Source: Ascidiella aspersa
Taxonomy: Eukaryota
Reading direction: 5' to 3'
Assembly (NCBI GenBank): GCA_963924565.1
Contig: OZ004608.1
Coordinates: 33,170,001 to 33,234,000, forward strand
DNA length: 64,000 nucleotides
Positions 3,142-41,565 of the stretch are shown one piece after another. Position 1 is the stretch's first letter. Every line of letters starts with the position of its first letter. The position numbers and the translations under genes are program-made. The notes beneath the pieces are model-generated. The model saw nothing but the letters and a program-made list of their open reading frames with translations. It was not told the origin of the DNA and ran no database searches.

Positions 3142-3215
3142 GCCTGTGTAGCTCAGTTGGTAGAGCGACGGTCCCGATATGACCGAGGTTGGAAGTTCGA
3201 ACCTCACCACAGACA
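3142..3215 (+). pseudogene. tRNA-like element (tRNA pseudogene or head of a tRNA-derived SINE), nominal anticodon GAT
   Basis: A box TAGCTCAGTTGG, B box GTTCGAAC, acceptor stem GCCTGTG/CACAGAC (1 mismatch), D stem GCTC/GAGC, anticodon stem CGGTC/GACCG with loop CCGATAT. The T stem GGAAG/CTCAC is degraded and U33 is absent, so it is unlikely to be a functional tRNA. Confidence 0.7.
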
Positions 3216-19683: not shown

Positions 19684-20832
19684 ACAAGCAATCTGCAGAA
19701 CCCCCTACCTCCAACTCTATTTATGTTTGTTTTGTTCTGTATGTAAGCGACCCGCACCGTAGACAAATGTGCTTTAACAATAAACGCGCTTGAAACTTTA
19801 AAGCTTTGCTCACTGTGCATTGTTATAGTGTGCCACGAAAAATAAGCCTCCGTCTAGCAAACTCGAATACCCTGTTTTAAGTGCACGACTTACAGCTTTA
19901 AAACCTAACTGACTGTGATAAAATGTGTGCAGTAACAAAAATAACCGTGTACAACTGCAATGATTTCCTTTTTTAAAGTAAAACTTCGTGTAGCAAAACC
20001 TTTTGCCCAGTTTGATAAACAGGACCTCCAAAACTGTAACAAGGTGCTGTTTCTTTGGTGCCAAACGTAAGCCTTGCTGTATCAAACCTTGATTAACCAG
20101 TTTTAAAACAGCGTTTGTATTGAAACTGAGTCGTTGGTATAAATATGTGTTTTCACCAAAAACGTACATGAAACTGTGAAATTGTCACCAAGTGCTGTTT
20201 ATTGCCACGAAAAGCGAGCCTCTCGTTACTGGGGCCCAGTATAAAGCATCAAGTCATGAAAAAATGCGCCTTAAAAGCAATGTAGTGTGCGCAAACAAGA
20301 AAACGTACATGAAACTGTTAAAGCTGTAGCATGTGCTGTTTCTTTGCAACGAAATTTTTAATATTCAGTTATAAAAATTCTCCTTAAAACTGATATATAT
20401 AGCTTTTAAACCGTGTGCATGATTTGTTCGTCGCCCCGAAAATCGCGAATGTGTGTGGCTGTGTGTGCATGTGCGAAGGGAAACTGCGCGAAAAACGGGC
20501 ACGAAGCGAAACCGCTGTACGCTGCTGAAGCAATGTGCAACGTGCTGTCGTGACGTTTAAGCCGTTTCCCGGACGCTTGCGTGCCACTATTCGAGCCGAA
20601 CACCGCGCCGTTCTCGTTTGTAACCGAGGCGCCGCTTCACAATACAATTCAATATGTCTTGCTTTGACTCCGTCTGACGTGTGCAAAAAAAAACACAATT
20701 TGGTGGGTGTGCAAAAAATCTTTTTTTTTCATTGTCAGGAAGACAGTTACATGTCGATGTACTTGGTTCGCCTTGTATAGGCGTCCTTGTGATTTTTCGG
20801 TCGGTATCTTCTTTAACTTCTGTTCTTGCTAC

Positions 20833-21065
20833 CAGTGATGTAAACAAGTCATTTTGAAATGATTAAGTCGCAGTCAAGTTACTTGTAAAACAAACTAAGT
20901 CAGGTCTTTTTGAATAAATAACGAGTCAAGTCCCAGTCAAATTTGTCCGAAATACTCAAGTCAAGTCTTTTGCCCAAATGACTTAAGTCAAGTCAAGTCA
21001 TTTAAAAACAGTGACTCGAGTGCACTTAATCAAGTCATTCATTGACTTAAGTCACTACAACACTG
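20833..21065 (+). mobile_element. Complete non-autonomous hAT element, family B
   Basis: TIR CAGTGATGTA / TACAACACTG, CAAGT repeats, TSD CTTGCTAC/GTTGCTAC (7/8). Confidence 0.85.
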
Positions 21066-23586
21066 GTTGCTACTGCCACCTCAGTCAGTCCGCTCATTGT
21101 TTTTGGAGAATTTTCCGCACTGCCACGCGCCCCTTTAATTCGATTTTGCCGAAAAATGGCGACAGATTAAGAGAACCCGAGCACCAGCGCCGCTATCGGG
21201 AAGTCCTGTTGGGAGAAACGCCAGCTTTCGACCCTTTTGCCTCTACAGCGGTGGTCACCTCCCCTTTTAAGTCACCAAACAATTCTCGTATCTCCGTCTA
21301 AAATTGCTTAAATAGCAAAACCAAGTAGCCTAACTGATAACACAGTAACACAATACCAAAATATGAGTTAGTTTTACATTTAACTGAGCAAAGAAATAAA
21401 TTACAGTAATACATTTTATGTGTCCAATTCAGCATCCCCGCACCCCCTTGGAACAGTTCTCGCACCCATTGGGGTGCAAGCATCCCTGGTTAAGCCAGTC
21501 TCAGTCAGTTGTACTAAAAAAATGACTTTTAAATCATGACGGCCAAAAATCGTTATTGCCCAGATAGGTATTTTCTCTTTTTACCCGCTATTTTACCTTC
21601 ATTTACAAAAGGAAACAACTTAAGCCGAACAAATTCGAGTAAATGCTTCAAAGTAGTGGTTCACAACATTTGTAGGTGGGTGATGGTTCTGAATCTGTGC
21701 GTCACCATGCCCTGTTGCACTGTTTTCATTTTCCAAGGACATACAATGGTTCCGTTTTATATTTAAACTCAATTTGTTTAAAATGCTTACTGGTGTCATC
21801 ATCCAATGACAAATGCATTCGAACCGTTACGGGAAAACTGCACCAATTAATTATGAAATATGACACCATCTGAACCATGTCTCACTTGTTTGTTGTTAAC
21901 AAAGACCTATCGTGTTTTACTGGAAAACCATCAATTTTCCCAATATTATAAGTCTTTTCATTTTTTTAAATATTTGCAATAGGGCTGGCAAATATTTTCG
22001 ACAAGGGGAGCGTGATAACAAGATAATTCCTCAATGGGACGGGCCAAAAATAAGAGCTGAAATACACATATTAAGAAGTGTAAATCTTTTCATAATAAGC
22101 TGTAAAAAGTATTGTTTTGGTAAGGCAAAATAATTAGTCATGAGTTGAGCTTAAATTTGTACTTTAATGAACGAAGAACACTTTCGATGGTGGCTACTTA
22201 TGCCTATTTTCATAACTGAGCAAAGCAAGTCGACAAAACCTGCGTTTCGAAGGCTCAGCACCTTACATTTTGATTGCGGTAATTTAAGCAATGGTAAACG
22301 ATGCTCCCAATGATATCTGAAAAATATTAATAAGATTGAGCGTTCGGTTGCTTAAGTTTTGATGAACATGAGACACAATTACGAGCACATCATAGTGTTG
22401 TGTCTAATACAAGATTAATATTCTGCGCAAGTTTTTATAAAGTGTATAATATTTAGAAAAACTCTGCGATGTTTTTCCTGAACATTTCATACCGAGCAAA
22501 ATGCTTGGTTAGTGTTGATATAGGTTGTCCAAGATGCTTCTTTTAAATGCTCAAAAAAGCAAGAATATCTAAAAATAACTTGTTTCATTTAGTAAACCAA
22601 AAATCTATTTGCCCGGTTAGCACTCTCATAAACTGATCGTTTACTCTAATTTGCCTTTCATCCACGTGATTTTGTCATTTTTTCGTTTTGGTAAGGGGCA
22701 ATTTAAATTTCTTAGCGGTAACGAAATAAAAAGGCTATAACAAACGGTGCTTTCTAATTTTTAAGAATAAACGTATGTCCGTTCCTTACCGACCTTTCAT
22801 GGTCCGACATTTTCCAAAAAAAGTCTTTATTTTAGTCAATGACAGTTCAATTTTCATCAAAGGTAAATTATTTCCAAACGGCGCTTTTATTTTGACAAAC
22901 GGCGCTTTTAGAGTTTCCTAATAGCAATGGTTAATTCGCCAACGCCCACAAGCAATCGGATGCAAAATCGGGCGCAATTTGCCCGAATCTGTTTGATCCT
23001 TTTTCCTCTGATTACACGTTTTTTCCGTGTACCGGCCTCTTTCAAGTTTTTGTGTCGGCGCGCTTTGATAAGACCCGGCGCTCTTTGATGAGGCAAGAAC
23101 ACGGAGAAAGGGGCTAGATCGCGAAAAAACGAACGCTGCGAATCAGCAACGGGCCTAGGACATGAGGTCCCACGCCGGTTCAGCTTGATACCCAAAGTAA
23201 GGAATGCTCTGGAGTGTTTACCCTAAAAACACGGGCCGGACAATGTCCGCGGCGCACTCGCCATTGTACCAGCAAAGTGCCGGCGCTGGCGGGCGGTTTG
23301 AAGCGGTAACGCGATCCCCTGAACGCCATCAGTCGATACAGAAGCGGGTTTCGCGCCTCGCGGGCGAGTATAAGACGCAAGAAAGCGGCGACAATTAGCA
23401 GCTGACGAGTTTTGGCGGTGCGCCGTGTTTAGGGTGTAAACTTGTGCGACAAAGGAACGCCGCGGAAATATGCCCCCGGAGAAAGATTATACCTCGTCCG
23501 CGATCGTTTTTTATTGTTTTCCTGTCGCGAAAATAGGAAGATCGTTTACTTTTTTTTGCTTTCCCGATTGTGGGACAGGCGACACA

Positions 23587-23613
23587 ATGGCCAAGGTGGT
23601 GGCATCACCGCGG
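23587..23613 (+). CDS. Mrlc: Candidate alternative first coding exon 1a of MRLC gene 2 (MAKVVASPR)
   Basis: ACAATGG Kozak context, 9 codons, donor GTAAGC at 23614 in phase 0, compatible with exon 2 at 29575. Preceded by a pyrimidine tract and CAG at 23578. Confidence 0.55.
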
Positions 23614-24606
23614 GTAAGCAACACCGGTTTGACGGGAGTCAACGGCCGAAAACGTAAATATGCCAATTAAGGGTCGCTAAAGAAATGCCAGGAGGGGCAT
23701 CAACTTCTATGTTGATATTTTTCGCCATTAAACGCAATAATAAGACGGCGTTTGCTAACTTTTAGATGATAAAGGCCTATACTCATGGAATATCCAAAAA
23801 TAAGTGCGTTTTGACCTGGATTCTGCATTATCAAGATAAATGCAGCGTTTTGACCATAATAATGTGTTAAGCATAAAAACAGTAGAAAATTGCGTTAACA
23901 TACAGATCGTAAATCAAAAATGTGTCTTCATTACCAGTAAAGTCTTCATTACCATATAGAGTTTTGATCTGAATCATATGTTAAACATGAAAGAAAAGGG
24001 AATGAAAAATTGATTTACATACGGATCTTAATCGCAATTAAGTAAAGTCTTCATTACCAATGATGTCTTCATTACCTCCTAGGGCATTTACGGAAATACG
24101 ACGGCTTTCCCTCCTCAACAAATACCCCTAAAGCTCCCTGAGACAGGTTTTGTTGTCGCGTCTGTTGCCGGGACACTACTCAGGTGACTCTATTCAGTTG
24201 TCAGGAGGCTCGAAATAACAGCAGGGTTTCAGCGATTTACCGACAAACAGAGGCTCTATGTCGGCCAAACATGTTCGACTATTTGTGGACGGCGAGGGCC
24301 CACGCGGCTCTTAGAACAAACCGAGGCAAAACAAAGTCGTTTACCCTTGAAACTAGTCGCGTTTGTCCTCGGCTGTTACGGCAACTGGCTTCAGTTTGGG
24401 GCACTTGTCTCGAACGGTGTATTAGCGTGATTTGGTAACGGTCGCCAATGTTTGGGAATGCTGGTCGAACACACTTTTGCCGACAAGCAGCGACTGTTGC
24501 CCGCCAAACAAGCCAAAAGAAACTCGTGTGCCGCTATGGACACCCAAACAACAACCCGACTTCTCAATAGAAACACAAATTAGATTAACAGTCAAGCAGG
24601 TTAAAG

Positions 24607-25121
24607 CAGTGGTTTTTAATCGGTGCTCCGCCTTGCAGCAATACTAGGTGAAAGATCTTCGGATGTTTCGCAGTGTTGTAAACAAGTCACTTTGAAATGA
24701 TTTAAATCCAAGTAAAACCTTTTTCAATAAATAACAAGTCAAGTCCCAGTCAAGACATAATTAGAGCAAGTCAATTCCAAGTCAAGTCCTTGGCATACAA
24801 ATTGCACGTTAAGCTAATAAAATTAAGTAAACTTGTCCGATTATGAGCAACAACTCTAATAAAAAAATACTAAAAACCCAATATACAGCAAGCAAATAGT
24901 TTTACGTGCAAAAATTAGGATAAATAAACTTTTTTTTTTTCAAAATGCACAATGAAAACATTTTATTTTAACCCAAGTCATTTTGTTTAAAAGACTTAAG
25001 TTAAGTCATGTTATTTGGAAACAGTGCACTTAAGTGCAATTGAGTCATTACTACATTGGTGTTCCGAAATAAATTTATTTATTTGACTGGAGTTCCATGA
25101 AACACCGGTTGAAAATCATTG
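24607..25121. mobile_element. hAT-like element with a nested family B element (24671-25058)
   Basis: Outer ends CAGTGGTTTTTAATCGG / CCGGTTGAAAATCATTG. Inner element CAGTGTTGTA...TACTACATTG flanked by ATGTTTCG/GTGTTCCG (6/8). Confidence 0.7.
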
Positions 25122-25960
25122 GTTTAACACAATGGTCGTAAGTTGCTTATGTTTTGTAAAAGCCATAGTGATTTGCTCCATTTATTGTTGTGTAATATTA
25201 AACCTCGATTTTATTACTATTGGAAAGTAATTGCGTGGGCCAGTTACTGCTGGATCAACACACGAATAGCCTACAGCTCGAATATCAATTTTGTCCAAAC
25301 AGGCCCACATATCGAACTAGCAAAAAACAGAAAGAGAAAAAGTTGCTGTTGTGTTGTTTAATTTTTTTCTTTATCATAAACTTCTGTATGATGTTCGGTA
25401 AAAACATGTTAATGCATCAGTGTTCTGTTGCTCAAAAAAGGTTGAAAAACAGTGGGTTAAAGTAATGAAGCCCTTATGGCGAAGAACGGAAGTTGTCCAG
25501 GCTTTAAAGAACAATGTCATACTTTACCACAAACAGATTCTTTTTATCCTCCGAGGTATTAACTTTACTTCTGTTCGGAAACAATTTGGAATAAACATCA
25601 ACGTTCACTAGGGTAAACTTGAACAAACTAATTTAAAATTATACAAAGATTTAACCCATTCTTTTCAAAACAAGAGTTCGACCAAATTATAAACGTTTTA
25701 TTATGTACCAAAAGCGGGTAAAACAGTCCTACTGATATACACAATAACCACATTTAACCTTAAATAACGCGTAGACTTGCGTAAGCTAAAGACACATGTC
25801 AATAGTTATGCAAAGTCCAGACCTTGCTTCAAGTGCCCTGTGCCGTCGGACTTAGATAAACACACGTCAGTCTGGTTCCTGACTGTTTTCCATATACATT
25901 CTTGAACAACAAGCCAGCAAGAAGGTTCACCCGGCAGGACTACTAGGAATTAACGGAAAA

Positions 25961-25981
25961 ATGAAAGACACGGTAAAAAAG
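25961..25981 (+). CDS. Mrlc: Candidate alternative first coding exon 1b of MRLC gene 2 (MKDTVKK)
   Basis: AAAATG, 7 codons, consensus donor AAG|GTAAGT at 25982 in phase 0. Inr-like TCAGT at ~25867. Confidence 0.55.
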
Positions 25982-27123
25982 GTAAGTGCTGTGAGGCTAA
26001 TTTAAAGAATTTGACGAAAAACTCTTTTAAGATTTAGAATCAAACAACAAATTTTGCTGTAGGGTAACCAATGTCCCTTAATCCTTTCAGTATTGACAAT
26101 ATTGTAGACAAAGAAGTTTACGTTGTTATATTCAAATTCTCAGTTAGTTTGATGGCAACCTCAACTAATCAAAGGCTGTCCTAACTCCAAATCAAGTTGT
26201 AAAAGATCACTTATTTTAAAGGAATAATAAAATTAGTAAAATGTAGCTTTTAGCGAGAATAATATTTTTGCAATTCGAAAGACTTCCATAAAGTTAATGT
26301 GCTGGAATTTATTATGTATAGTGGCTTTAGAAAGAAAACCAAGAAAAAAATGTTGGCATTCTAAAGATTTTAAACGAAAATCCTCGTTTAACTGTGAGAA
26401 ACGGGTACCAAAAATCTATAAAAAACAGGTACCAAAAATCTATGAAAAAAGTACCAAACTTCGCTGACACTTCTGTCATTACGAATAATCTGGTTGGAAA
26501 ACTATGAGAATAGGATTATAATTAACCTGAACCAAATTATAAACAACTAAACTGGTTTGCTTTTTTCCTATAATTATACAAGCTATAAAGTGTCCGAATT
26601 TTTGTCTTATTTGTTACTCTCCCAGATAATACATTGTTGGAATTAGACTGGTTAATTATTAAAATATTATATGAGGTGACGTTTTGGAGAGCCAAAGCTC
26701 TGTTTTCAAATATACGGATATGTAGGGTTAACTTACTTTTAGAAAGCTTCACTGATACCTAAAGTGAAACTGATAGCCCCTTTTAAAGTAGACACCACTT
26801 TGACACAAAAATACATGGTTTGCCTCGCACAAAGTCCGCGCACAATTGCAATGTGTCAGTTTTTGGGCAAATCCAGACAAAGCACCATCAGAACATCATC
26901 ATCGACAAAGACTCATCAACCGGCCCGTGTCGAAATGTTTATTGTGGCCGATTCGTAACGCGGTTTGCTGACTAAAGCAAACAGCTTGCTCACTGAGCGT
27001 CGGTCGTGAACTTCCGCTCATTACGTCAGCGCAATGCAGTGTGTTTTTTATCAATGAACTGAACGCGCCGGCCGGACCGGACGTTACGTAAAGAGATTGA
27101 ATGACGAATAAGTCGCCTGATGC

Positions 27124-27642
27124 CGAACTTGGACAACTAGATAATTCAAGTTTTCTAATTCAATGAATTAGAACGAAAATGCGTATAATTTCGATTCTTG
27201 TCTAGTTTGTGAGTTGCTTGCGTGCTTTAATTCTACAGTTTTAATCTAATTCGGATTTTTCCAAGATTGCTACTTTGTTCAACGGCATTTTTAGTGATTT
27301 AGTCGAAATAAACATTTTTTGATCGAAACGACTTGTAGGTGATTTTACAATCTGAAAAGCATAGGCCATTGGACACTATAAAACATATAAAAATTAGCAC
27401 ACAAAAAAACACCATTCACTTTTTATAAGAATAAATTGCGATTAACATAAATCGATTGTAAATAATTAAATGTAATTCTAGTTTAATTTTTGGTTTTGAA
27501 GAATTCGGCAACTCTAATTCTAATCTAATTTGAAAAAACAAAAATGATCTTATTCTAATCTAATTTGGAAAAACTGAAATGCTCTAATTCTAATTAGAAT
27601 CTAATTTGAAAACGCTAAAATAAATCTAGTTGTCCAAGTCTA
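27124..27642. mobile_element. Non-autonomous hAT element with TCTAAT subterminal repeats
   Basis: 16-bp inverted repeat ACTTGGACAACTAGAT / ATCTAGTTGTCCAAGT; TSD CCTGATGC/CCTGGTGC (7/8). Confidence 0.85.
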
Positions 27643-28020
27643 CCTGGTGCGAAAGTTTTTTTCAACCGTTAAAAACACGGAGAATTTTCTAACTTTTTTA
27701 AATTTGGTGTAAAAGCATTTTGCAAGCAATGACTTTGAATAACCCTTAACAATCATGAAGTTGACCTGCAGTAAAACACTAAAGTAAAATATAATAGCCA
27801 AGAAACCCGTTTTGATTTATATAACACTTGTCAACTTCATAGTAACAGCTTTTCAACAATTCTAAACATTCAGGTCAAAAAAGAGCCTTGGAAATAAACG
27901 ACATTCATTCCGTGCATAATGAATAATAAAGTCTATACAGAAGTTGGTAGCATTTTGTGAAAGTTTATTTTACCGTACAAATATAGAATTATTCAAAACG
28001 TTGATAAAATTTTGGAGCAT

Positions 28021-28145
28021 AATGGTTGGAGGTTGTAGTAAGACGTAATAAGAATAACAAAACCCATACTGAAGTAGGTGTCATGATACCATGATGTTGG
28101 TCCAGTGCTTCCTATTTTTATATGGGCTTGAACCTCAAGCCATTA
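28021..28145. mobile_element. Internally deleted family A palindromic MITE
   Basis: AATGGTTGGAGGTT...AACCTCAAGCCATT ends; an adjacent partial copy lies at ~27925-28000. Confidence 0.7.
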
Positions 28146-28859
28146 TGCATCGAAAGTAAGAGTGATTCATGAATATTTATTCTTCCTGGGTAAAAGACGA
28201 GAAGTAAATTTCGCTTTCCCCCGAAAATATAGTTTAAAAGAAGCTTTCGGTATTGACATTCACAAACTTACACCGTGAGTTTTGATCAGTTACCCCAAAC
28301 TACTATGACAACTTGGAATTTTTTTTAATAAAGTACTAATGTACCCAAACTAAGAAAAGGAAGAACAATATTGCCGATATAAAGAACCCATAAATGAACA
28401 CACCGTTAGAGAAAACTGTTGTGTATGCCTAATATGACATTTAGCTTAACATATTACTCAGCGATATCGTGAAAAATATCGTGGATATAGAGCCTCGTAA
28501 AATGCATACTGAAAATTGAAACCAAACTTGGTAACTTCAAAGACATAAATATTACGGTGACAACTGTCATTTGCAAAGGCATTAATTTGTACAAAGTATA
28601 ACGCGACCCTTGAATAAAAATTTTAACAAAGGCCAAAGCAGCAAAAAACGCTAACGCCTCCGCCACTCGCGTTATGTATTCCGATAAGGACATGGTCGTA
28701 TCCACACCCGTGAAACACCGGGTCTCTTGGCCCTGCGTAATAGTCAAGGGACTCTGGTGACGCGTAAGAGCCTCCCAGGGGACTAGACGCAGCAGGCTAC
28801 GCTATAGCTGGCCGGGCGATCTCTTTTCATGGATAGCAGCGAACGCTAAGTGGATGCAA

Positions 28860-29095
28860 GGCAGTTGTGCGTATCCAAGCAAAGGCGCCTCGCCCAAATC
28901 CAACAGCTGGATTCCAGGCATCCATAAAAGGATTCAAGAAGCTCGTTGGGATCACGCGTAGCTCTTCCCCCCTGACGGGCGAGCTAAATATAACGCGCGT
29001 TACTTGAGAGACATAGTCGACTGCCACGCTCCCTGTTACTTCTTCGCGACGCGCAGCAACCAGCAGTTATCAGTCTCAAGCTGATAAGCACAAGG
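28860..29095 (+). promoter_or_regulatory. Proximal muscle-type promoter and probable 5' UTR exon of MRLC gene 2
   Basis: E-boxes CAGTTG 28862 and CAGCTG 28904, perfect CArG CCATAAAAGG 28922-28931, MEF2/TATA-like CTAAATATAA 28984-28993, inverted GATA pair TTATCAG/CTGATAAG 29067-29088. Donor GTGAGA at 29096 and acceptor CAG at 29165. Confidence 0.6.
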
Positions 29096-29184
29096 GTGAG
29101 AGTGTCTACCAGTATCGGACCTTGATAGGACAGAACCCTAGTATCTCTTTTTTTACTCTTGTCAGGCAGACTTAATCGACAACA

Positions 29185-32100
29185 ATGGTAAGTGAATGTC
29201 AGGGATAATGTAATGCATAAAGCTTTGTGTTTATTTGCGTGATATCGCTATTGAGAACATAAAATAAAAAGTTGAGAACATAAAATCGGTTTAGACTTTG
29301 GAGAAATGTATGTCCAACCAAGAACATCCATTTATAAGTAAATAACTATTGCTCTTCCAGTGCTTAACCATCTACAATTGGACGATTTAATTACAATTAA
29401 CCAGTTACAATTCGACGATTATGTGTAGCAATATCTAACTTCACAGCCAAATTCTAAGCAAAACTTTAAATCCAAAGGACGTACAATAGACAAAGTATTT
29501 TAAACTATCGACTTAAACTGAAACCATTCTTGTAATCGATCACATTTGAAGCCGAAACGTGGTTTGTTTTTCAGGCCAGTCGCAAAACCAAGAAGAAGGA
29601 AGGAGGAAAGATGAGGTCGCAGCGTGCCACCTCGAACGTCTTCTCCATGTTCGACCAGTCGCAGATCCAGGAGTTCAAAGAAGTAAGTTAAACTATATAC
29701 CGAACACGATCCCCGACGCTTTGCAAAGTAAAGCGATATGAGTCGTTTGCGTTCTAGGAAGCTCATATACACGAACGCCGGTAATGACAATTTACGTGGA
29801 AGTCTCGGCTCTCAAAGGCTTGCTAACATGCGTTTCTGAGATAATAACCATTCACAACTAACATTCACCCCTTTCCCAATTGTTCGTTTGACCCTCCCCT
29901 CCTTACTTATATGTTGGAAATTCACCCATAACTTATAGCAAGTGGTTCTAAACCTGAGGTACACTACAGTGCTACGCAAGCAGATTTCATTTAGGAAAAT
30001 AATAGAACGTGGATAATTACGGAGATGCCGTCTCTTTTTGCCACATCAAATGGGCATAATCTATGTAATTTTTGGCTAGTGTTGATATCGAACCTTTAAA
30101 AAACATTGCTAAATTAGCGCAAATGGTTTCTTTTAAAACCAGGCGGTACGTAACGACAGTAAAAACCCACTGTGGTACGCGGACAGAAAAGATTGAAAAC
30201 AACTGATTTACCAGGTTTAGGGTATAGGTGCTATGTGTAGGGCCAGGGTAAAAGTCCACAATAGCTCATTCCCTATACATAGCGTTGACACTGATCGGTT
30301 GAACCAGGTTCGCCGCATTACATCACTTACACACGAAAAGCATGGGATCGCGGCGGTCGAGCGCGCGCTTAATGTCATTTGAAGGATACCAACAGGTGAC
30401 TGACGACTGCTGAGCGTTGCAGCGGGGAGCCCGAAACCGATTAGCGGGGAATACCGACGGGCGAAACACGGGAACGGGAATTTGCCCAATGATCGATCTT
30501 GCGTCGTGCCGCTTATCGCTGCGGCATAACGGCATAGGTGAAGCGCTCTGCGTTCAACCAGTGGTTTCCAACCGGGGTGCCATTTCTAATGCCCAACGGT
30601 GCCGAGAGATATTTGAAAATCTTTAAGAATGATTTTTGTTCAACTCTTACAACTTTTTGTGTAAGATTAGAGTGATATAAATCCAATTAAAACTTCCTAC
30701 GTTGTGCAGACTTGATGTGTGTTGTTCCAGTTTCGTTTCTTGGGACATTCTAGCGATTTACCTACGGAAATATAGTGTAAGGGTGCCGCGATATATGTAT
30801 TATTTCTTGGTGGTGCCGCAAACATAAAAGGTGGAGAACCACTGGTTTAACAATTGTCACAAACGCTTGCATACGAATGTAATAAATTGGGAAGTAGTTT
30901 TCCAAGTTAAAACCCTGACATTAAACAGTTAATGAGCGTTGTTAGTGGTGCCGCAAGCCATAAAAGGTTAAACGCACGACGCCAACGAGCAAAGACACTT
31001 TCGCCGGAGACTGTAGTGTGTTCCTGCCTGCGGCTTAGGGATTGATTGCTTATTCGCAGCCCTGCCACTATACAGAAGCAGCTCTATACCAGCAGCAAGC
31101 AAGAGCTATAGCGCGCGTTCGAAGGTTGGATAACGTAAACAAGTCGCCGGTGCGCGTGCGGTTGTTTACGTTAGGTGGCGGTGATTCAGGGCGCTCGCGC
31201 TCTCGTCGACGAACGCTGTGGAAGCGCAGTGACAAAGCGAATATTGTGTTTCTTCTTGGAAACGCAGGAGGCCACAATGGCGACGAAGTGATATCCGCCG
31301 GTGCGCGCGCGCGCCGCAGCAAGGCAACGGCCCCGTAAACAATCGACATCATCATCGTATTGTGCTTCTTCTTCTTCTTCTTAGTTTAAAGTTGGCGCCG
31401 CCGCAATGGTCTGCGCTAACGAAATCGCCGATGACGGGTCTTTCGCGCGATTTGGCTTTTGAGTAAACAACAACATGCGCGAGATATGACAGTCGACATC
31501 ATTCCTTTGATTGTTTTTTCTTTTTTGCGAATTGATTGGGCGATGCACGGAGTTTAAAACTCTGCATACATTTCTTGCGATTCGAAACGCAAAATAATTG
31601 TGAGCCAGGCTCTTAATCACGCTAATGTAGGCCGCCAAATTATTTTGGGGGGGCCGTGTAGTAGTTTGCACTAGCGTTTCTCAACCTTTTCTCGCGGAGA
31701 CCCCAATTCTAACCATGTAACAGCGAAACTTAGGCGACCTAAATTCTCTAAAATGAACTTTTTGTAAGTCGACGCAATATCTGAATAGCATTAATAATTT
31801 CGAACTTAATTACTATACGCCATGTCGTCGTAAGTCTCCCGGAGTTTCTCAAATTTTAGCGATATTTAGTCAAAGAACTACTGCAGTCGGGGACCAAACT
31901 ATATCAAGCCGCGACACAATTTCTGAACAGTATGTTGATAAACACTGGTCCAGACAAAAACAACAAGTGGCGAAAAATATTTTTCGAGGCCACAAAATTA
32001 CATTTCGAATTAACCTAAGCATTAGCTGCGTTAAAGTCATGTACAAAACAGATGGAAAATTATAAAGGGCCTGGTCTATGTAGGCGAGATTTCATTTAAT

Positions 32101-35100
32101 TCGATTGCCCTTTAAAAAATAAAAATAGCCAGGTTTAGTTTTCCATCTGTTCCTTCGCCTTTGTTTAGCCCGGGCCGGGTTTAAATGGCAGCCCTTTTGA
32201 AGTCCCCCCGGATTTTTGGCCTGTTTTTTCGGCGTAATTTTGCGGCCGCCGAGTATGTTGGCCACAAAGCGGATTGAGCACGATAGAACGCCGCGTCTTT
32301 AAGTTGAACAAACGGCACGAAACGCGGACAGGAGAACATAGGAGACTGATGACACACATTTGAACTGGGATGGGGCTCAAACCGAAGGAAAGACGCCAAC
32401 GTCCTTTTTCCTTAGTGCAAAAAGGAACCGACGCGATTTTTCTTGAAACCTTACGAATTCGGCAAAACTATTGAAAAACACCTAGCACGTTTGAGCGTTT
32501 TGGAACAGCTGTATACGGGAACGTACTGCTATGTTTTACCGTATATTTAAAGTAATTAAATTCAATAAAAAAGGTAAAACAACAACTGAACATATAGAAA
32601 CTCGAACGTTATGTTTGATTCTTTAACAAACATCAATGATTTATTAAATGTATTTTTCAAAAAAAAACAATCCTAGGGAAGTTTAGTAAAATAGCTGGAG
32701 CTTTTAAACGAACGTTTTAAGGTGCAATTAAACATTACCCGACGGCTGCGGCAGAAAAAATATCAATATAAACCGACTTACGAAAGCTCTAAAATATTTT
32801 TTTTACACACAGGCCTTCACTATGGTTGATGCGAACAGGGATGGCTTCATAGACAAGGAGGATCTGGCTGACACCTACGCCTCTTTAGGTACGTGCTTTC
32901 ACCATTGGTGTAGACGTTTTTTTCATTCTGGTATATAGACTTTCTCCGCAGTCAGACTGTGTTATTGTTCTATCATTGAACAGCGATATAATCCTGCTAT
33001 AATCTGAACGCTTTAGTATTTAAGAAACCGTTAACAAACATTAAAACGTAGAATAAAAACTCTTTCATATTTCTGATCATCTGGAGAATTAATACCCGTC
33101 TTAACTTTTAGTTTTTTGTAATGTTGTTAATAAAAGTCCAAAGAATAACTTTTCTACTAGATAAGTTAATTTCGATAACTAAAGGTATGACTTACTTTTA
33201 AACAGTTTTATTTTACACGTCTTTTAATGAGGCTTACTCAAGCCCAATAGATTTGATTTAAAAATATGCTTCACACATTTTTAACACGTTGATTTGACAA
33301 CGAAATCGCAGAATAAATTACAACATCGCAGGTTTTCTAAATTGAAATCCTTTTCTACAGAAGTAAGCGTTTTCGAAAACTCCAGAACGAAGGTTTAAAT
33401 ACCTATACAATTTACAAAATAGGCGTGTTGGGTTCTGTCGACGAAGCGTGTTAAGTTAGACGACATGCAGAAGTCGCATTCGTTTATAAACTCCTGTAAA
33501 CTGAATACCGAGGTGTACGTATAAGGTTTGGGTCAAGAGTGCAGGCGTTCATACGGGGATTACGTAAGCCGCCTTCGCGCTATTGGTCGGCCGGTTATTG
33601 CAGCTGTCAGGAATAGCGCGCCTGTTCTGCTAGTATAACCGACACCGCTCATCGTAAAATGAACGCGTATCGGCCCATCGCTGTGCAGGCCCATACAGGC
33701 AGCCGCTAAAGACACTGATTATGCCTTTTAGTTGGCAAAACGCATATTTTATATCTTCGTTTCTCAAGATATTTAAAAAAATTAAAACTTCTATCGTCGG
33801 CATTATGTGTTCTGTTTGCGGGCAAGATTTTGTTGTGGAAAAACATAGTAAGTCGCCTTGACTTTATTTTAAACCGAATTTCATAACCGTGTTCTTTTTT
33901 TCCCGGAGGGTAGGCCACACAGTTAGAGGCGAATCCTCCATGTGGCTATTTTCCAACTCAATTGGCGAGAAACCTCGTTTATATTGAATTGATTTAAGGC
34001 ATACACGAAATATAGCCTTTAGAAACGCGCTGGGACAAACTCGATGCCAAATTCTCTTTATCCACCTTTTAATATGAGCCCGTGTCAATAAGAGCCGGTC
34101 AAACTAAAAGCAGCCGCATAAACAGGCTTTAACCGAGGCCCGCTTTAAAACAGCCGCCTATAAACTTACAATTTGGCAGACGCGGGCTAGAGCTCACATG
34201 TAATTGAGTTTATGGTAAAAAACAGACAAATACGGCTATAGCCAAGTAATGTCTTGTCTTGCTATTTCAAATATACTTGCCAACCTTTAGTTACAAATTA
34301 CGGATGCCTTTCAAAGGAAACCGGTCTGCATTTAAACAGCCGCCTATAAACTTACAATTTAGCAGTTTTATTGTAAAGAAACTTTTATTGTTCTTTCTAA
34401 TGCTTTGCCAAAAAATAAAAACTCATAATGGAGAATCTTTAAATGAAAATACTGTTGCTGCCATGCATTGTTTCAATTGTAAAATTGTTTTTCCGACACA
34501 ATTTTATTAAAGTACAAACGTTACGATTACCTATTCGGGCAATCTTTTTCAGGGCAATATTAATCCTTTACGGAAATGCGTTTTAATGGAAACCGGTCCG
34601 CTTTACAAGACATTTTAGGCTCACGCGCTATAGAGCTCGTGTATTTTCTTAAGGTTCGCCGTCTTGTTTGTTTAACGCGTGTCTTGCACGAGGGCGGCAC
34701 TACCGGCGTGACGTCACACAAGATAAAGCGGGTTCGGAATAATAACTCGGGCCGTGACGTGTCGTGACGTAACAAACGGTGGCGGGGTGCGTTCGGTTGT
34801 GACGTTGTCTGTACAGGAAGGGAAATGTTCGGGGTTGGTGAAAAGGATCTGCGATAATTGCGATGGGTGAGGTTTAGTTGGGCGTTTGCGCGCGCGTGTG
34901 TGTGTCTACGTGCGTGCGTGCGCACGTGTGTGTGTGTGTGTGTTTATGAAGTGAGAAAATAGGGGCAAAATCATCGGAAATCTACAACATTGTATCACAA
35001 AAGTAACCCCATAGAGCTACACTGAATTTTCAAAAACACACCTTTTTGAATTTCCAAGTTGGTAAAAAGCATCAGGAGCTTTATGTCTTAGCGGCGAATC

Positions 35101-38100
35101 GAATTTACATAAAACACTTCTTATGAATTCATTTTTGTTTTCTAGAATATTTGTAAATCTTACATAGTGCTTATATTAGTTGCGATCCCTCGTAACATCA
35201 TTTTTAAACAAGAGAGCACCAGGCTTCAATTAATCAGAAATAATTAGAAAATAATTTGTTATTTCATAAAGCGACGCCCAAACGGAAAAGATATAGATTA
35301 CAAATAAAACTCAAAAGTTTAAAATACAGTATCGAATATTTTTTACAGAAATATTTATTATATACAAGCGAGAACCCACTGACTGTGGCTTCATGTTCCA
35401 TAAATATAGGACCTTTTAAAAAATAAATATGTAACGCGTGGTTGAATTACACGTGCAGATGTTACCAACTTTAAATCATAAGTGTTGTAGGGTTGTTCAC
35501 GGGCTTTAATACTAATGAAAGGGCCCATATACAGAAGGCAGTATTGTTCTGTACATCCTAACTTAAAAAATAAGCAGCGTCCAATACTTCCGAGAATTAG
35601 CATGGATGTTTCTCGACGTGCTATTAAACGCATTTTAAACTATGAAGTGGTTTCTTCTGCATAAGTCGCTTTGTTATAATATACTATAGCGCTTATATAT
35701 AATGCAGAGTATAGCCGAATCACAACTGTTGACCCGCCGCCATATTCCCCGTCTTTCCGCTGCGAACTCACTTCACGCCAGCGAGTGACAGAAGCGTTGA
35801 GAGCGTTGAAAGCGTCCGAAGCGCTGCGGGCGGTTCCGGCGTTGCTTGGTTAAATCAACGCCGGCCAGAGCAGAGCGATTTAAACGCGATGTTTAAATAA
35901 ACAAAAGCGGAAATGTGAGCGGACGCGAATCCAGATTTGACCCCAGTTTACACCAAAATTATAGCTAAGCATTTTCCAAACGGATACAAAGGTTCGGTGC
36001 GTATTTCCATATAAAGATAAAGCCGCTAGTTTGAAAAAAATCCTAAACGCTTTTAAACAACTAAAAACATTGCTAATTTATAATTCGGTAATAACTTTAA
36101 CTTTCTCTAAATTAGCTAAACAATTTCAGAACGAATACAAGGTCCAGTTTCAAAACAACACGACAGCAGCTAGTTGAAAAAAATCCTAAACGCTTATAAA
36201 AGACTAAAAACATCCCAAGATATAGTTCACTGATAACTTTAACTTTGTCAAATCGGAAATTGTGTTACAACCGCCATTGGTTGCACAAATATAAACCCGG
36301 CGTCTTCTATTAAAATATAGCGCCGCCACACGTGTAGCCATTTACATACAGGAGTCTATAATTCAATGTACAGATATTTTCAGATCGTCCTTAACAGGCT
36401 CAAATAGCTACGGAACCCGCCTTTAATAACTGCAACGTTATCCCGCATCCAGTGCTCTGTTTAACAATGATTTGAAGCGTTTTAATAGCAGAAGGCTTCA
36501 TTTTCCGCAGTCCGATTCGACAATACAGCAGCTATTGTACTTGATTGTTATTCCCGTTGTTTTGTGTGGCCGCAGGTCGTGCCCTATCCGACGACCAAAT
36601 AGCCGCCATGCTTGCCGAGGGTAAGGGTCCCATCAACTTTCAAGTCTTCCTCGGGATGTTTGGCGACAAAATATCTGGTAAAAATCGCCATTAAGGCATA
36701 TCACGTTCGACGTGGCATGGTGGAAACCATTCTAAACGCATTAAATCAATCATTGTCATCCGGTTCGGAATCAAGTCGAACGTTTTCTCGCCCAAACTTC
36801 TCCTTTGTGAATGGATAAACCAACCATCATCTCACCTGACAGTCAAAATCTCATCTCGTTTCATTTTTGGTGAACCTAACACCGTTTTCCCTCTGTTCAA
36901 CCAGCGTGCATGTATACTTGCATCAACGTTGTTTTTATGCTCATATTTTGGCAAAACCAAGGCTTAAAATGGGTTAAATTGGCGGGAATAAGAGTTCGAA
37001 GTGGCCGTCTTACTCATATTTCTTTCAGAGTGAATCTGAAAATGCTTAAATAGGAAAGAATGGAGGTGCAATGTTACCATCCCATTTGACGCAGATTGAC
37101 AGACAGAGGGTTTAGGTTTTAAGCGTGTTATCGGCCTGTGATTTACGATATGTGCGCACAGGAACTAATAAGAGCGACAAGGAACTCGAAGAGATGCTGC
37201 AGCAGGCGCCTGGGCAACTAAATTTCACTGTGTTTCTGTCCATGATGGGCGATAAGATTAAAGGTACATCCTGCACTCTGCACAACAGTAACACAAAAAT
37301 GCACACAGCACCTGAAACTAGCACATTTGTAGCCTAATAGGTAAACGTTTAATTTCGTTGCGCTACTGGTAATTCATTGCATTAAGACTGGACAGTGATG
37401 TTCCTTCAAGTAGAAAAAACGCCACAGCTGCAACAAAAGTAATTGCCCCACTTCACACAATCAGCAACACGATATTTTCATTTTTTGAGATATATAGACA
37501 AGTATACAATTTGTTTCCTGTTAAACTGGCAAATTTAATTAATAAAATAAATTAAAATTTTAATTAGATTTCCAGATGCTATTTGCACAATATTCACTCA
37601 ACAAAAATGAAAGGGACACAGAAAACCAATAGCTGATTAATTTTTAACACCAATTTTGAAAAAAACGGATTGCGTAGAATAGATATCAAAGCATATTGAT
37701 GAAATTAGGGTTTCGACAAGTTGGACTTTATCGCGACCGCGGTCACTTAACTATATAGGTGCATGCGGCATGGGGTGACATTGCACCTGCAAAAGAGCAA
37801 TCCGTTTAAATGCCCAAGATTCGCGCCGAGCCATTGTGCGCGCTTTCGGTCCGTTTTCCGGGCCTGGTGTCGCGCGGCGGAAAGGAGCGGCGCTGATAAA
37901 CTGCCTGACAGATGTACTGCTGCTCTCGTTTCCGTTTGCGGCACCACGCGCTTAGCGTTGCGCTAGGAGCTGTCAGTCAAACGGTTCGAACGGCCTGAGC
38001 CCGGCAGAAACAAGAGTTGAGCTGCTGCTGCTGCTGCTGCTTTTCAACTCTCGCTGACTCCCGGATAAACGCGTCACGCAAGTTGCTCGAACCAGCAGCG

Positions 38101-41100
38101 CTTGTTGCAGCGATCTAGCTCGCGTTTTTTCTGCGTTTTTTCTTAGTTGCGTTCAACATGCATGCTTCCCTCATTGTATTGCGTTTTTTTCTGTTTTTTT
38201 GGGGGGGGCGGAAGGTGGGATTTTAACGCAAGTTCACCCGCGGGAGCGAAGGTTTAAAGAAGTTTAAAAGAACTATTGCAGACAGATTTCGTTTTTCGAT
38301 GTTTTTGGTATAAGTCTGCTTTCTGAGAATGACAGCTATGATATTTTAACACAGTTCCACGGCTCAAAAAGAGTTGAAAAGCACTGGCTTACACCACTGC
38401 CTAAATCTCATCACGTAACCCTCTAGTTAACTTGTGCGTTTTTTCGTGCTTTTCTCGTTTTGTTCGACACGCATGCCCCCGCAATCGCATGACCCGCGTG
38501 TTTTTTTCTTGTTTTTTTCGGCCGGATGGTCGGAAATTTAAGTTCACCGCTGTAGTGATACAAGTTCGCTTCACCGCTTTCATGCCTGCTCCATTTGAAC
38601 TGTTCAAAATTGTACACGTTAATTTCAGCTTTATTATTGCTATTTTTTAGTGCAACTTTGAACACATTCAGGGTGAACTGACTGGAATAACTTTTTAACT
38701 TATAGTTTACTTTGGATGTCCTTAGGCTACAGTTTTCGCATTTGAATCTACAAAAAAACAATTGGCTTGTCTAAATTGACAATACGACCCAAATTGTTTT
38801 TAGTGGCAATGGGTCCAAATAAACATTACTGTTGGCGTCCACAAAGTGCCTTATTTTAAACAACATATATATACTAGGAAGTTGCCAGTGCTAAACGTAG
38901 AATCCATCCAATCTATGCACAGTAACCGTAAACGGGCATTTGGAATATTATCTCGCCCATTCACCACAAAAAAACAATTGGCTCACTTAGATTTTTCTCG
39001 CAGGAACTGACCCGGAAGAAACAATAGTCCAGGCCTTTAAGGTTTTGGATGCCGACGACAAAGGAGTTCTCAACAAGAAAGTGTGAGTTCGAAATTCCTA
39101 GTTTTAACAGCGTACATGGGCAGTAGGGATGTCTGATACATTTTATTCCTATAACGATAAGAAATATTTAAAAAAAAATTCGCAATCCATTCTGATGCCA
39201 AATGACGTCATTATCACGCTCAAACAAGCAAAATGTATGAATTCGAAATGTTCTAAGGTTTTTTCCCGGGATTCTAGATCACAATTTGCTTCAGCGTTAG
39301 GCAGTTTAGTTACCTTCAGTTCAACCCAGGGAGTCGAACCGTTTGACTTTTCCGGTTCAGGTTCGGTTCGGCTTCAAGGATTTTTTTCTGAATACGGTTC
39401 AGTTCCGGTTTCGGTTTGGAGGAATTTAAAAGTTCCGGTTCGACCATCGTTATTTCAAAACCGGTTCATTAAGTTCCGGTTCGGATATAATATAAGTTGC
39501 GTTAAATCTAAAAATGTGGGTCAATAAATGTATAGAATAATCTTTGAATAGTAAGTCAGTCAATCAAAGTTACGTGACGTATTTAAAAAACAGCAACTGC
39601 TTATTGAAATATCTAAAACATAAAAAAAATTAAGGTTTTTTAATCAATATTTAAATTCGTTCATAGAATTTTAAACATAGCATAACTTGAGTCTTTAAAA
39701 TACAAGTTGTGACGTCATGCTGGAGTGAACCGGTTTTGTTAACAGGTTTGGGTTCGGTTAAGGTTCTTTCAAATTATTTGGTTCAGTTCCGGTTCGGCTC
39801 CTTGAAATCTTACAAAAAATGGTTCAGGTTCGGTTATGGTTCGGAAAAAATTGACCCAAAACCGGTTCATAAAGTTCCGGTTCGGTTCCGGTTCGACTCC
39901 CCAGTTCAACCTACTATTTTTCGACAAATTTACCTTTCAACGTAAAAAATTGTGTTGAATCGCAAATCATGGCTGAAATGTCCATATGAATTTGGCATAG
40001 GATCGGCACAGAAACCACCCTAGTATCGGCCGAGTTCCGATAATACTAATGAGCATCGGCTTTGACATAGGCTACCTAATCTGCAATTATATTCTTTTTG
40101 TTGTGGCTTTAACGCTGTACGTGTATTTTGCAGATTGGCAGATATTCTAACCACACAAGCTGACAGATTCAACGTGCAAGAGGTAAAAATCGTAATACCT
40201 CATGATAAGATTTTTCATGCAAAACAAAAAACAAAAATTGGACTTTTTTAAAAACAGTTATTTGATTTTGAGAGTTTAGACTTTAGAGCAGTGGTTCTTA
40301 AACTGGGGTCCAAGGACCCCTTAGGGGTCCGTGAACTAGTTTTAGGGGGTTCGCGAAGGCCAAATTGAAATATTGGTATATATTTAGGAAGTAATCAATT
40401 TTTCTAAGGAAAGAGTTTAATTAAAAATAAAACATTTTTGCACTGAATGTCTCTGTTTCTATTTTCCTTTTCACATTTTGTGGACCTAAAACTGCGGATT
40501 TCTGCAGTCTATTTGTATTGTGACGTCAATTCATGACGTCATATTTATTAAATTTCCTGCACACCGTGGTCCACGTGAAGCAAAAACAAATTTTGGGGGT
40601 CCGCGGTGAAAAAAGTTTAAGAACCCCTGCTTTAGAGTGTCATTTTTTAACCTTTTTCGCAACTTTGTTTTTAATTTCGTTTATATAGGCGCCCTTTTAA
40701 CTTATTAAAATGTGTTGAAACTTGTAAAATCTTATTTTCTGATACAAATAAAAGAGCATTTAAAAAACAGAATAAACCGGGCTACAAAGTTGCCATTAGT
40801 GTTTCCTGTAAAACTAGCAAAAATAACAAAAACGTTGTCACACGGTTATAATGGTCGGAAGCTGCAGTTAGACGAAGAAGGAATATCAAAGCACATATGA
40901 AAGTTTGGTAGCATTTTGAACGTTTCGAATATTTCTTTTTTAACACGTTGAAAATAAATCAAGAGTTATTCGAAACGTTTAAAATTCTACTTCAATATGG
41001 GCTTTGATATTCTTATTTCGTCTGGTAAATTATAATTTCGCCGGTGTGAGACAAATATAAGAGCGTTACAAAGAGCAGTAGAAATTCGGTTACAATATTG

Positions 41101-41565
41101 CCCTCAGTGTTTCCTGAGAAACTAACGGAAATACTAAAAACCGTTTTTTCGCACGTTTATAATGGCTGGAGGTTGTAGTTAGACGTAGAAGGAATATTAA
41201 AGGCCATATGGAAGTTGGTAGCATTTTGAACGTTTCTCTTTATTAACACGTTGAAATGAATTAAGAGTTATTCGAAACGTTCAAAATGGTAAATATGGGC
41301 TTTGATATTCTTATTACGTCTGGTAAATTAGAATTTCGCCGCTGTGATATAAATGCAACAGTGTTACAAAGAGCGGTACAAATCCGGTTGCAAAATCGCC
41401 CTCAGTGTTTCCAGAGAAACTAACGGAAATACTAAAAACCGTTTTTCGCACGTTCATCTTTTTCAGTTGAACCAGATGTTCGACATTGCGCCAATCGATG
41501 CGGCCGGGAACTTGGACTACAAGTCGCTCTGCTACATCGTCACCCATGGACAAGAAGAGGAATAG
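29185..41565 (+). CDS. Mrlc: Myosin regulatory light chain, MYL7/MYL2-like, paralog 2, 171 aa, with duplicated (alternative) exon 4
   Basis: Exons 29185-29187 (ATG), 29575-29682, 32813-32888, 36576-36677 or 37162-37263, 39004-39082, 40134-40182, 41467-41565; 516 nt with one exon 4; intron positions and phases match paralog 1. [41 protein letters not shown]-hand [13 protein letters not shown]-terminal [25 protein letters not shown] at 41976. Confidence 0.95.
29940..30206. mobile_element. Diverged hAT-like element
   Basis: Ends AAGTGGTTCTAAACCT / AGATTGAAAACAACTG with internal GGTAC repeats. Confidence 0.5.
30559..30844. mobile_element. Non-autonomous hAT-like element
   Basis: Ends CAGTGGTTTCCAACC / GGTGGAGAACCACTG, internal GGTGCCGC repeats. 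Confidence 0.7.
31672..31947. mobile_element. Diverged hAT-like element
   Basis: Ends TAGCGTTTCTCAAC / GTTGATAAACACTG. Confidence 0.5.
34885..34943. repeat. (GC)n/(GT)n microsatellite
   Basis: GCGCGCGCGTGTGTGTG...GTGTGTGTGTGTGTGTGT. Confidence 0.85.
36576..36677 (+). CDS. Mrlc: MRLC gene 2 exon 4a ([35 protein letters not shown])
   Basis: CGCAG acceptor, GTAAAA donor, 102 nt, phase 1-1, homologous to RLC EF-hand 2. Not shown in frame in the ORF track. Confidence 0.88.
37162..37263 (+). CDS. Mrlc: MRLC gene 2 exon 4b ([35 protein letters not shown])
   Basis: CACAG acceptor, GTACAT donor, 102 nt, phase 1-1, homologous to RLC EF-hand 2. Confidence 0.88.
39327..39903. mobile_element. Non-autonomous hAT element with many GGTTC/CGGTT subterminal repeats, apparently nested in an older element (~39124-40074)
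   Basis: TIR CAGGGAGTCGAACCG / CGGTTCGACTCCCCA; perfect 8-bp TSD GTTCAACC. Flanks begin TAGGGATGTC and end with ATCGG/CCGAT repeats. Confidence 0.88.
40289..40629. mobile_element. Non-autonomous hAT (Charlie-like) element
   Basis: TIR CAGTGGTTCTTAAACT / AGTTTAAGAACCCCTG; perfect 8-bp TSD CTTTAGAG. Confidence 0.92.
40780..41455 (+). repeat. Tandem duplication, ~300-bp unit, ~2.2 copies, each full unit containing a family A MITE
   Basis: YAGTGTTTCC recurs at 40797, 41105 and 41403 with colinear similarity between units. Confidence 0.85.

What the first reader, a model, noticed from the sequence alone, without database searches (positions are those of the whole stretch)
23579..29682. Three candidate alternative first coding exons give MRLC gene 2 different N-terminal extensions
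Seen: three separate ATG-bearing mini-exons each end in a strong phase-0 donor and join exon 2 (29575) in frame: MAKVVASPR|GTAAGC (23587-23613), MKDTVKK|GTAAGT (25961-25981) and M|GTAAGT (29185-29187). Each follows its own promoter-like block, which would explain the otherwise gene-free 9.5 kb between the two MRLC coding regions. Established: the basic RLC N-terminus upstream of the phospho-serine affects MLCK recognition and head regulation. Inference: three promoters times two exon-4 variants allow up to six light chains, possibly with promoter-coupled exon choice. Extension 1a adds an S-P-R proline-directed kinase motif.
Basis: partly seen in the sequence, partly recalled or inferred. Interest (0 to 1): 0.72.

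Follow-up and report, generated by a model that had tools for sequence, protein, structure and literature searches.

The report
Two-start sea-squirt myosin light-chain gene
This sea-squirt muscle gene (a myosin regulatory light chain) likely starts from two alternative first exons that give the protein either a bare or a short lysine-rich front end, as public annotations of other sea squirts already show, while the proposed third start is plausible but unproven.

Summary
The three mini-exons are in the sequence as described and join exon 2 in frame, but they are not equally supported. 1b (MKDTVKK) and 1c (M) have the best 2 of 588 donors in the interval. A related locus has the same pair in the same order: MSTPKK 3.2 kb upstream of exon 2 and M 169 nt upstream, with a conserved E-box/CArG/MEF2-TATA promoter at 1c. 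RefSeq already lists M- and MKK-/MSSQK- isoforms with alternative exon 4 for Ciona, Clavelina and Styela. 1a (MAKVVASPR) has a middling donor (rank 7, with decoys), no counterpart in that locus's 10 kb upstream and none in relatives' proteins. It does carry a TATA-like box, a G+T-rich leader and a poly-T/CAG acceptor, a combination seen in 1.6% of shuffles (post-hoc test); I put it near 50%. No junction reads were obtained. The extensions lie 20 or more residues before the kinase serine, so an MLCK effect is doubtful. Verdict: a known kind of isoform switch, with one open lineage-specific candidate.

The parts
23369..23407 (+). Candidate 1a core promoter: TATA-like TATAAG (23369) and E-box/CRE half-site about 30 nt downstream, at the end of a single-copy CpG-rich block (about 22950-23600)
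   Evidence: Motif scan; CpG rank; single copy; not conserved in L010. Function inferred only.
23399..23578 (+). Putative outron or leader of 1a: G+T 0.58, ends in a T-run and CAG; holds an in-frame upstream ATG at 23470
   Evidence: The acceptor scores only 1.3 bits (rank 65 of 517). Start site inferred from the TATA-like box.
23579..23613 (+). Candidate exon 1a (8-nt UTR + MAKVVASPR), donor GTAAGC; unproven (about 50%)
   Evidence: no homologue
25961..25981 (+). Coding part of first exon 1b (MKDTVKK), donor AAG|GTAAGT; 5' end not located
   Evidence: Best donor of 588; counterpart MSTPKK in L010 6741-6758; MKK/MSSQK isoforms in four species
28902..28993 (+). Conserved 1c promoter: E-box 28904, CArG box 28922, CRE half-site 28973, MEF2-like/TATA element 28984
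   Evidence: All four motifs present in the same order in L010 9585-9671; local score 69 against a null mean of 22.5, p 0.005. Motif names are recalled consensus labels.
29067..29087 (+). Conserved pair of GATA-like sites in the 1c leader
   Evidence: L010 9721, 9734
29166..29187 (+). 1c: strong acceptor at 29166 (possible trans-splice or UTR-intron site), UTR and ATG (29185-29187), donor GTAAGT
   Evidence: Acceptor rank 2 of 517, donor rank 2 of 588; M-only exon also in L010 and in three paralogues
29575..29682 (+). Exon 2 (basic N-terminal segment and RATS phosphorylation motif)
32813..32888 (+). Exon 3 (EF-hand)
36576..36677 (+). Alternative exon 4a
   Evidence: 78% identical to the Clavelina X3 segment; also in L010
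37162..37263 (+). Alternative exon 4b
   Evidence: 80% identical to the Clavelina X2 segment; also in L010
39004..39082 (+). Exon 5
40134..40182 (+). Exon 6
41467..41565 (+). Exon 7, coding part to stop

Best explanation
MRLC gene 2 is the orthologue of the tunicate 'smooth muscle' regulatory light chain and likely uses two old alternative promoters with their own first coding exons, 1b (MKDTVKK) and 1c (M), each predicted to splice to exon 2, while 1a is a possible third, lineage-specific start of about even odds. Shown: the exons, frames and donor strengths, the same 1b/1c order and the conserved 1c promoter in a related locus, and M- versus K-rich N-termini in annotated orthologues. Inferred: the proximal 1c promoter (E-box, CArG, MEF2/TATA) drives the body-wall muscle form, mainly with exon 4a. 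The distal 1b promoter would give a form with 6 extra residues and two more net positive charges, often with exon 4b, most likely in another muscle such as heart. Inferred effect: fine tuning of the basic phosphorylation domain and of N-terminal processing, not a change in kinase recognition. If 1a is used, it would be transcribed from the TATA-like box at 23369, lose a 180-nt G+T-rich outron by spliced-leader trans-splicing at 23579 (which also removes an upstream ATG), and splice to exon 2.
For: Orthology: 91% identity to Ciona X4 and 89% to Clavelina X3; grouped with them in a starred clade (99/95) apart from gene 1 and the other paralogues. RefSeq names and sequences: Ciona intestinalis X1-X5 (MKK or M, with 4a, 4b or exon 4 skipped), Clavelina X1-X4, Styela X1-X3 (MSSQK or M), C. 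savignyi MKK; all diverge exactly before ASRK. Genomic relative L010: best-scoring donor in 10 kb is MSTPKK|GTAAGT, 3.24 kb upstream of exon 2 (window 3.59 kb); M|GTAAGT lies 169 nt upstream; exons 4a and 4b are present. 1c promoter conserved, p 0.005. 1b and 1c are donors 1 and 2 of 588. Exon 4a in the Halocynthia 'smooth muscle' protein P07461. M+4b is absent from the 4 Clavelina and 3 Styela isoforms returned. For 1a: purine at -3 plus T-run/AG plus donor occurs in 1.6% of 500 shuffles and 0 times in 144 kb of control sequence. Its G+T-rich leader matches described Ciona trans-spliced promoters (PMC4691747 passages).
Against: No splice junction was seen in this species. I did not see the exon structure or read support behind the RefSeq models; that MKK is a separate exon there is inferred. 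No promoter signature or conservation upstream of 1b (p 0.095). Ciona intestinalis has all four first-exon/exon-4 combinations, so coupling is not strict there. The heart assignment of 1b/4b has no direct evidence. For 1a: donor matched or beaten by four other sites, acceptor rank 65 of 517; no counterpart in 10 kb of L010; no third N-terminus among stored tunicate proteins. Equally CpG-rich blocks lie inside intron 2 (54 CpG at 31000). The criteria were chosen after seeing 1a. Any upstream donor must skip the strong 29166 acceptor, whose use would shift the frame or stop it.
Confidence: 0.75

Rival explanations
1. All three exons are real MRLC starts, giving up to six light chains, with 1a a recent addition in this lineage.
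For: 1a and 1c are the only 2 of 6 ATG-donor units in the interval with a purine at -3 plus a T-run/AG before the ATG. The block is single copy, CpG-rich and has a TATA-like box about 30 nt before a G+T-rich stretch. Frame fits exon 2.
Against: No relative shows a third N-terminus, nothing homologous in 10 kb of L010, weak acceptor and middling donor. L010 ends 10 kb upstream of exon 2, so a farther counterpart is not excluded.
Confidence: 0.45
2. 1a is a chance ATG-donor pair at the edge of an enhancer-like CpG-rich block; only 1b and 1c are used.
For: About one such unit per 10 kb arises in shuffles, and three more unpicked ones lie in the same interval. L010 has two apparent decoys of its own. 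Intronic blocks have equal CpG density.
Against: The composite signature is rare in shuffles and in control DNA (post hoc).
Confidence: 0.4
3. 1a is a real exon of a different transcript: it splices to the nearest acceptor at 24205 and gives a separate 86-codon ORF or a non-coding RNA upstream of the MRLC gene, or it splices unproductively to 29166.
For: 24205 (4.1 bits) opens the only frame of 77 codons or more behind an acceptor of at least 4 bits between 1a and exon 2, and it is in phase 0. Both listed allelic differences inside it are synonymous.
Against: No Pfam match above cut-off, no paralogue, no tblastn match in L010, and GC at codon positions 0.49/0.56/0.48 against GC3 0.64-0.75 in the MRLC genes. 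Two variants are few, and the variant list was truncated.
Confidence: 0.1
4. Only 1c is used in this species and 1b is a decayed or chance site.
For: No conserved or CpG-rich promoter upstream of 1b; the peptide differs between species apart from the final lysines.
Against: Best donor in the interval, same position and K-K end in L010, and K-ending extensions annotated in four species.
Confidence: 0.05

Closest known systems
Ciona intestinalis 'myosin regulatory light chain, smooth muscle' isoforms X1-X5 (XP_002125107.2, XP_026691391.2, XP_002125168.2, XP_002125039.2, XP_078488472.1); Clavelina lepadiformis X1-X4 (XP_076814760-763); Styela clava X1-X3 (XP_077966379.1, XP_077966380.1, XP_039259799.1)
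   Same: Orthologous protein (89-91% identity to Ciona and Clavelina), two N-termini diverging before ASRK, two alternative versions of exon 4.
   Different: The extension is longer here (MKDTVKK against MKK or MSSQK), and none of these annotations has a third N-terminus like 1a.
Vertebrate MYL1 (MLC1F/MLC3F) essential light-chain locus
   Same: One light-chain gene with two independent promoters (PMC2199907, abstract start); N-terminal variants affect contractile properties (PMC4914028 passages).
   Different: Essential, not regulatory, light chain; its extension is about 40 residues and binds actin, against 6-8 extra residues here. Strict promoter-exon coupling at MYL1 is recalled and was not read here.
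Vertebrate MYL5
   Same: The most frequent named non-tunicate hit, with a near-identical N-terminal segment.
   Different: One-to-one orthology not shown; in the tree the tunicate proteins form their own group.
Ciona troponin I
   Same: One muscle gene with cardiac and non-cardiac isoforms (PMC6589888 section 17); trans-spliced from a TATA promoter with a 459-nt outron (PMC3074122 passages), the model for 1a.
   Different: Isoforms arise by alternative splicing rather than alternative first coding exons.
Long N-terminal extensions of Drosophila and tarantula RLC
   Same: Extension ahead of the phosphorylation domain.
   Different: 46 aa in Drosophila and thought to reach actin; the ones here are far too short for that (inference).

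Membership tests
Tunicate 'smooth muscle' MRLC orthologue group | Highest identity to, and clade with, the Ciona/Clavelina proteins rather than the gene-1 type paralogues | tested here: met
   91%/89% identity; starred clade 99/95; gene 1 falls in a separate 100/99 clade
Tunicate 'smooth muscle' MRLC orthologue group | Duplicated alternative exon 4 (4a/4b) | tested here: met
Myosin regulatory light chain | EF-hand 1 and basic N-terminal segment with RATS motif | tested here: met
   (PF13202 above cut-off in exon 3)
Alternative-promoter gene (1b/1c) | Two ATG-bearing exons with strong in-frame donors, conserved in order | tested here: met
Alternative-promoter gene (1b/1c) | Distinct transcription start sites and junction reads to exon 2 | tested here: inconclusive
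   the one RNA run laid barely covers this gene
Alternative-promoter gene (1b/1c) | Recognisable promoter upstream of each exon | tested here: inconclusive
   Met for 1c (p 0.005), not detected for 1b (p 0.095)
Alternative first exon (1a) | Conserved in relatives (DNA or protein) | tested here: not met
   limited to one 10-kb upstream locus and the stored proteins
SL trans-spliced 5' end (1a) | G+T-rich 5' region, outron of about 50-500 nt, unpaired acceptor | tested here: inconclusive
   G+T 0.58 against an interval mean of 0.48, 180 nt; acceptor weak; a 7.2-bit donor at 23417 could pair with it in cis
SL trans-spliced 5' end (1a) | Spliced-leader sequence on mRNA at 23579 | not tested
   No reads cover the site
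MYL1-type promoter-coupled exon choice | Each promoter is tied to one alternative internal exon | tested here: inconclusive
   M+4b absent from Clavelina (0 of 4) and Styela (0 of 3) isoforms, present in Ciona X3; 1b-type start occurs with both 4a and 4b in all three

The most novel reading that the evidence does not exclude
This lineage has added a third, trans-spliced promoter/exon (1a) to an old two-promoter MRLC gene, giving a light chain with a new proline-directed phosphorylation motif, and promoter choice biases exon 4a/4b use so that one gene supplies distinct heart, body-wall and third-tissue light chains.
Probability: 0.25. Interest if true: 0.5.

Novelty: new member of a known kind. 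Interest (0 to 1): 0.3.

Why it matters
Tunicates built heart, body-wall and tail muscle isoforms independently of vertebrates, and how muscle-type gene sets are regulated is described as mostly speculation (PMC6589888 section 17). A gene with two conserved starts and two versions of exon 4 is a compact test case: reporters for the 1b and 1c promoters could mark muscle types, and the compact conserved 1c promoter is directly testable. The two-start layout is already in RefSeq for three species, so the surprise is modest; only 1a and promoter-exon coupling would be new.

Tried and rejected
RNA: no RNA holder listed for 23200-30000. One RNA run of the same species label, about 6% read, laid 3016 reads at 90% likeness, almost all on repeats; depth was 0 in the bins holding 1a, 1c and exon 3 and 0.23 in the bin holding 1b, and none of the 15 joints shown (981 hidden) is a splice joint of this gene. 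Since even 1c is uncovered, this is no evidence on any exon; a second, targeted lay gave no result, so junctions stay untested. Local alignment of 33 windows across 19700-29700 to 10 kb of L010 found only the 1c region clearly above null. 1a as a duplicate of the 1c unit: rejected, p 0.31. A UTR intron 29096-29165 in 1c: doubtful, its donor lies in an insertion absent from L010. Rfam: 0 matches at E 0.1 in 19700-29600. Five ORFs of the interval: no Pfam match above cut-off. My codon-likelihood score is discarded because part of its training set was out of frame; only the GC-by-position figures are used. More of the L010 contig could not be obtained; the ESM Atlas gave no result. A third protein search (22-70 aa) added no new N-terminus. 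Literature: searches surfaced no paper describing alternative first exons of a tunicate MRLC. Chiba et al. 2003 (PMID 12740698), the survey most likely to describe these isoforms, is not held. Supplement searches: PMC4691747, 5 files, 0 hits, file 1 not searchable; PMC11155486, 1 file, 0 hits; gene identifiers may differ, so unseen tables may bear on the claim. Earlier scan notes: nothing on this locus; the four notes listed concern other loci.
Full report
Setting. [quoted passage not shown] Gene 1 (16747-19683) is 92% identical to a Clavelina paralogue and groups with two more copies' relatives; two close paralogues lie on contig C6. Gene 2 (exon 2 at 29575 to the stop at 41565) is 91% and 89% identical to the Ciona intestinalis and Clavelina 'smooth muscle' MRLC and sits with them in a starred clade, 99/95 (26 rows, none dropped). 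The organism is therefore a tunicate by protein similarity.

Observation. All three mini-exons exist, end in GTAAG and are in frame with exon 2. That alone is weak. With a splice matrix from 24 donors and 25 acceptors of this genome's MRLC genes, shuffles give 0.8-1.0 ATG-plus-donor units of at least 8.5 bits per interval, and the real interval has six: 22291, 22839, 23587, 25132, 25961 and 29185. 1b and 1c stand out as donors 1 and 2 of 588; at their strength 0 of 300 shuffles held two units. 1a ranks 7th.

Proteins of relatives. A search with exon 2 returned tunicate orthologues with two kinds of N-terminus that part exactly before ASRK. Cluster members complete the sets. Ciona intestinalis has X1-X5: MKK+4b, MKK+4a, M+4b, M+4a and MKK with exon 4 skipped. 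Clavelina has X1-X4: MKK+4a, MKK+4b, M+4a and MKK skipped. Styela has X1-X3: MSSQK+4a, MSSQK+4b and M+4a. C. savignyi has MKK+4b. Among the stored proteins matching the tunicate exon-2 pattern, 9 begin MKK and 2 MSSQK, two are genomic read-throughs and the rest begin with M alone; none resembles 1a. These are database models whose read support I did not see.

A related genomic locus. One of 39 loci from a metagenome scan, L010, holds the whole orthologue with exons 2, 3, 4a, 4b, 5, 6, 7 and a shared downstream non-coding element. In its 10 kb upstream the best donor closes MSTPKK, 3.24 kb before exon 2, with AAG|GTAAGTG as in window 1b; M|GTAAGT lies 169 nt before exon 2. The 1c region aligns from an E-box and CArG box through a CRE half-site, an identical MEF2-like/TATA decamer and a GATA pair to the ATG (score 69, null mean 22.5, p 0.005; motif names are recalled consensus labels). 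The sequence before 1b does not align above null (p 0.095), and nothing matches the 1a block. L010 stops 10 kb upstream, so a farther 1a counterpart is not excluded.

The case of 1a. For: a single-copy block among the most CpG-rich in the window, a TATA-like hexamer at 23369, then 180 nt with G+T 0.58 (under about 2% of interval windows reach this; mean 0.48), a T-run and CAG at 23578, a purine at -3 and a GTAAGC donor. Ciona trans-spliced promoters have G+T-rich 5' regions and outrons peaking near 100 nt (PMC4691747, passages; PMC11155486, abstract), and the trans-spliced troponin I gene has a TATA promoter (PMC3074122, passages). The purine + T-run/AG + donor combination is met by 1a and 1c only, by 1.6% of 500 shuffles and by nothing in 144 kb of control sequence, but I chose these criteria after seeing 1a. 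Against: acceptor 1.3 bits, rank 65 of 517; four unpicked donors as strong or stronger; equally CpG-rich blocks inside intron 2; no homologue. Without the 23579 acceptor an upstream in-frame ATG at 23470 would be read first and give a 48-residue, low-plausibility extension. A nearer acceptor at 24205 opens a 77-codon frame with two synonymous allelic differences but no coding signature or homologue. I put 1a as an MRLC exon at about even odds.

How it likely works. Shown: two conserved starts and two exon-4 versions. Inferred: the proximal 1c promoter is a muscle promoter with an MRF-type E-box. The Halocynthia 'smooth muscle' protein P07461 carries the 4a version, and a review reports that Mrf is needed for body-wall Mrlc4 (PMC6589888, passages and section 17; that Mrlc4 is this gene is recalled, not checked). 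So 1c+4a is the likely body-wall form. 4b appears only with the K-rich start in the Clavelina and Styela sets but with both starts in Ciona, a hint of biased rather than strict coupling; heart use of 1b+4b is a guess by analogy with troponin I. Transcripts from upstream starts must skip the 22-nt 29166-29187 segment, whose inclusion breaks the frame. The extensions end 20 residues before the RATS serine, whereas the residues described as important in smooth-muscle RLC are K11/K12 for S19 within a 24-residue basic phosphorylation domain (PMC4914028, section 10 part 1 and passages). 1b and 1a each raise the net side-chain charge through ASRK from +2 to +4. Fine tuning of the off-state or of N-terminal processing is more plausible than altered MLCK recognition; neither is tested.

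Direct RNA evidence is lacking (see Tried and rejected), so no junction is shown in this species.

Comparison and verdict. The layout resembles MYL1, where two promoters yield two essential light chains (PMC2199907, abstract start in the listing and two reference entries), but with very short extensions, unlike the 46-aa Drosophila RLC extension (PMC2674065, passages). PMC6952182 (one passage) added nothing. Seven searches found no paper on this feature in tunicates, but the key 2003 survey was not available. The two-start design is already annotated in three other ascidians, so this is a new member of a known kind; interest 0.3. The open, possibly new parts are exon 1a and promoter-exon-4 coupling.

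Noticed in passing
window 20200-20780: Single-copy CpG-rich block followed by the strongest acceptor of the interval (20739, 14.2 bits; single copy); no partner donor or ORF identified. Possibly a trans-splice site or a non-coding exon.
   Followed up: partly
window 24205-24438: 77-codon open frame behind a 4.1-bit acceptor; both listed allelic differences in it are synonymous, but no coding signature or homologue.
   Followed up: partly
window 43307-43418 / L010 18221-18326: Non-coding element 79% identical over 112 nt in the related locus, downstream of gene 2 and upstream of a forkhead gene; likely a conserved enhancer.
   Followed up: no
window 46447-46719: Forkhead domain (PF00250, E 3e-38) of the gene downstream of MRLC gene 2.
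   Followed up: partly
window 36576-37263: Exons 4a and 4b are 102 nt each, so skipping both keeps the frame; RefSeq lists such 139-aa isoforms in Ciona (X5) and Clavelina (X4).
   Followed up: partly
window 29661-29673: 14 RNA reads carry four G>A third-position differences on exon 2; they do not match the exon-2 sequences of gene 1 or the C6 paralogues printed. Source unexplained (another paralogue or another organism).
   Followed up: no
L003 1495-2016 and 2658-3035 (G000:C6 near 4.95 Mb): Intronless non-muscle-type MRLC ORF about 640 nt upstream of an ORF that resembles the start of a myosin heavy chain (resemblance recalled); possible operon-like pair.
   Followed up: no
G000:C6:3893004-3903189: Tandem pair of gene-1-type MRLC paralogues with near-identical proteins and shared TATA promoters.
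   Followed up: partly
window 30300-31500, 34500-35000, 37750-38250: CpG-rich blocks inside gene 2 introns (45-54 CpG per 500 nt); candidate intronic enhancers or splicing-control regions.
   Followed up: no
window 3139-3215: tRNA-like stretch seen by eye; not scanned.
   Followed up: no
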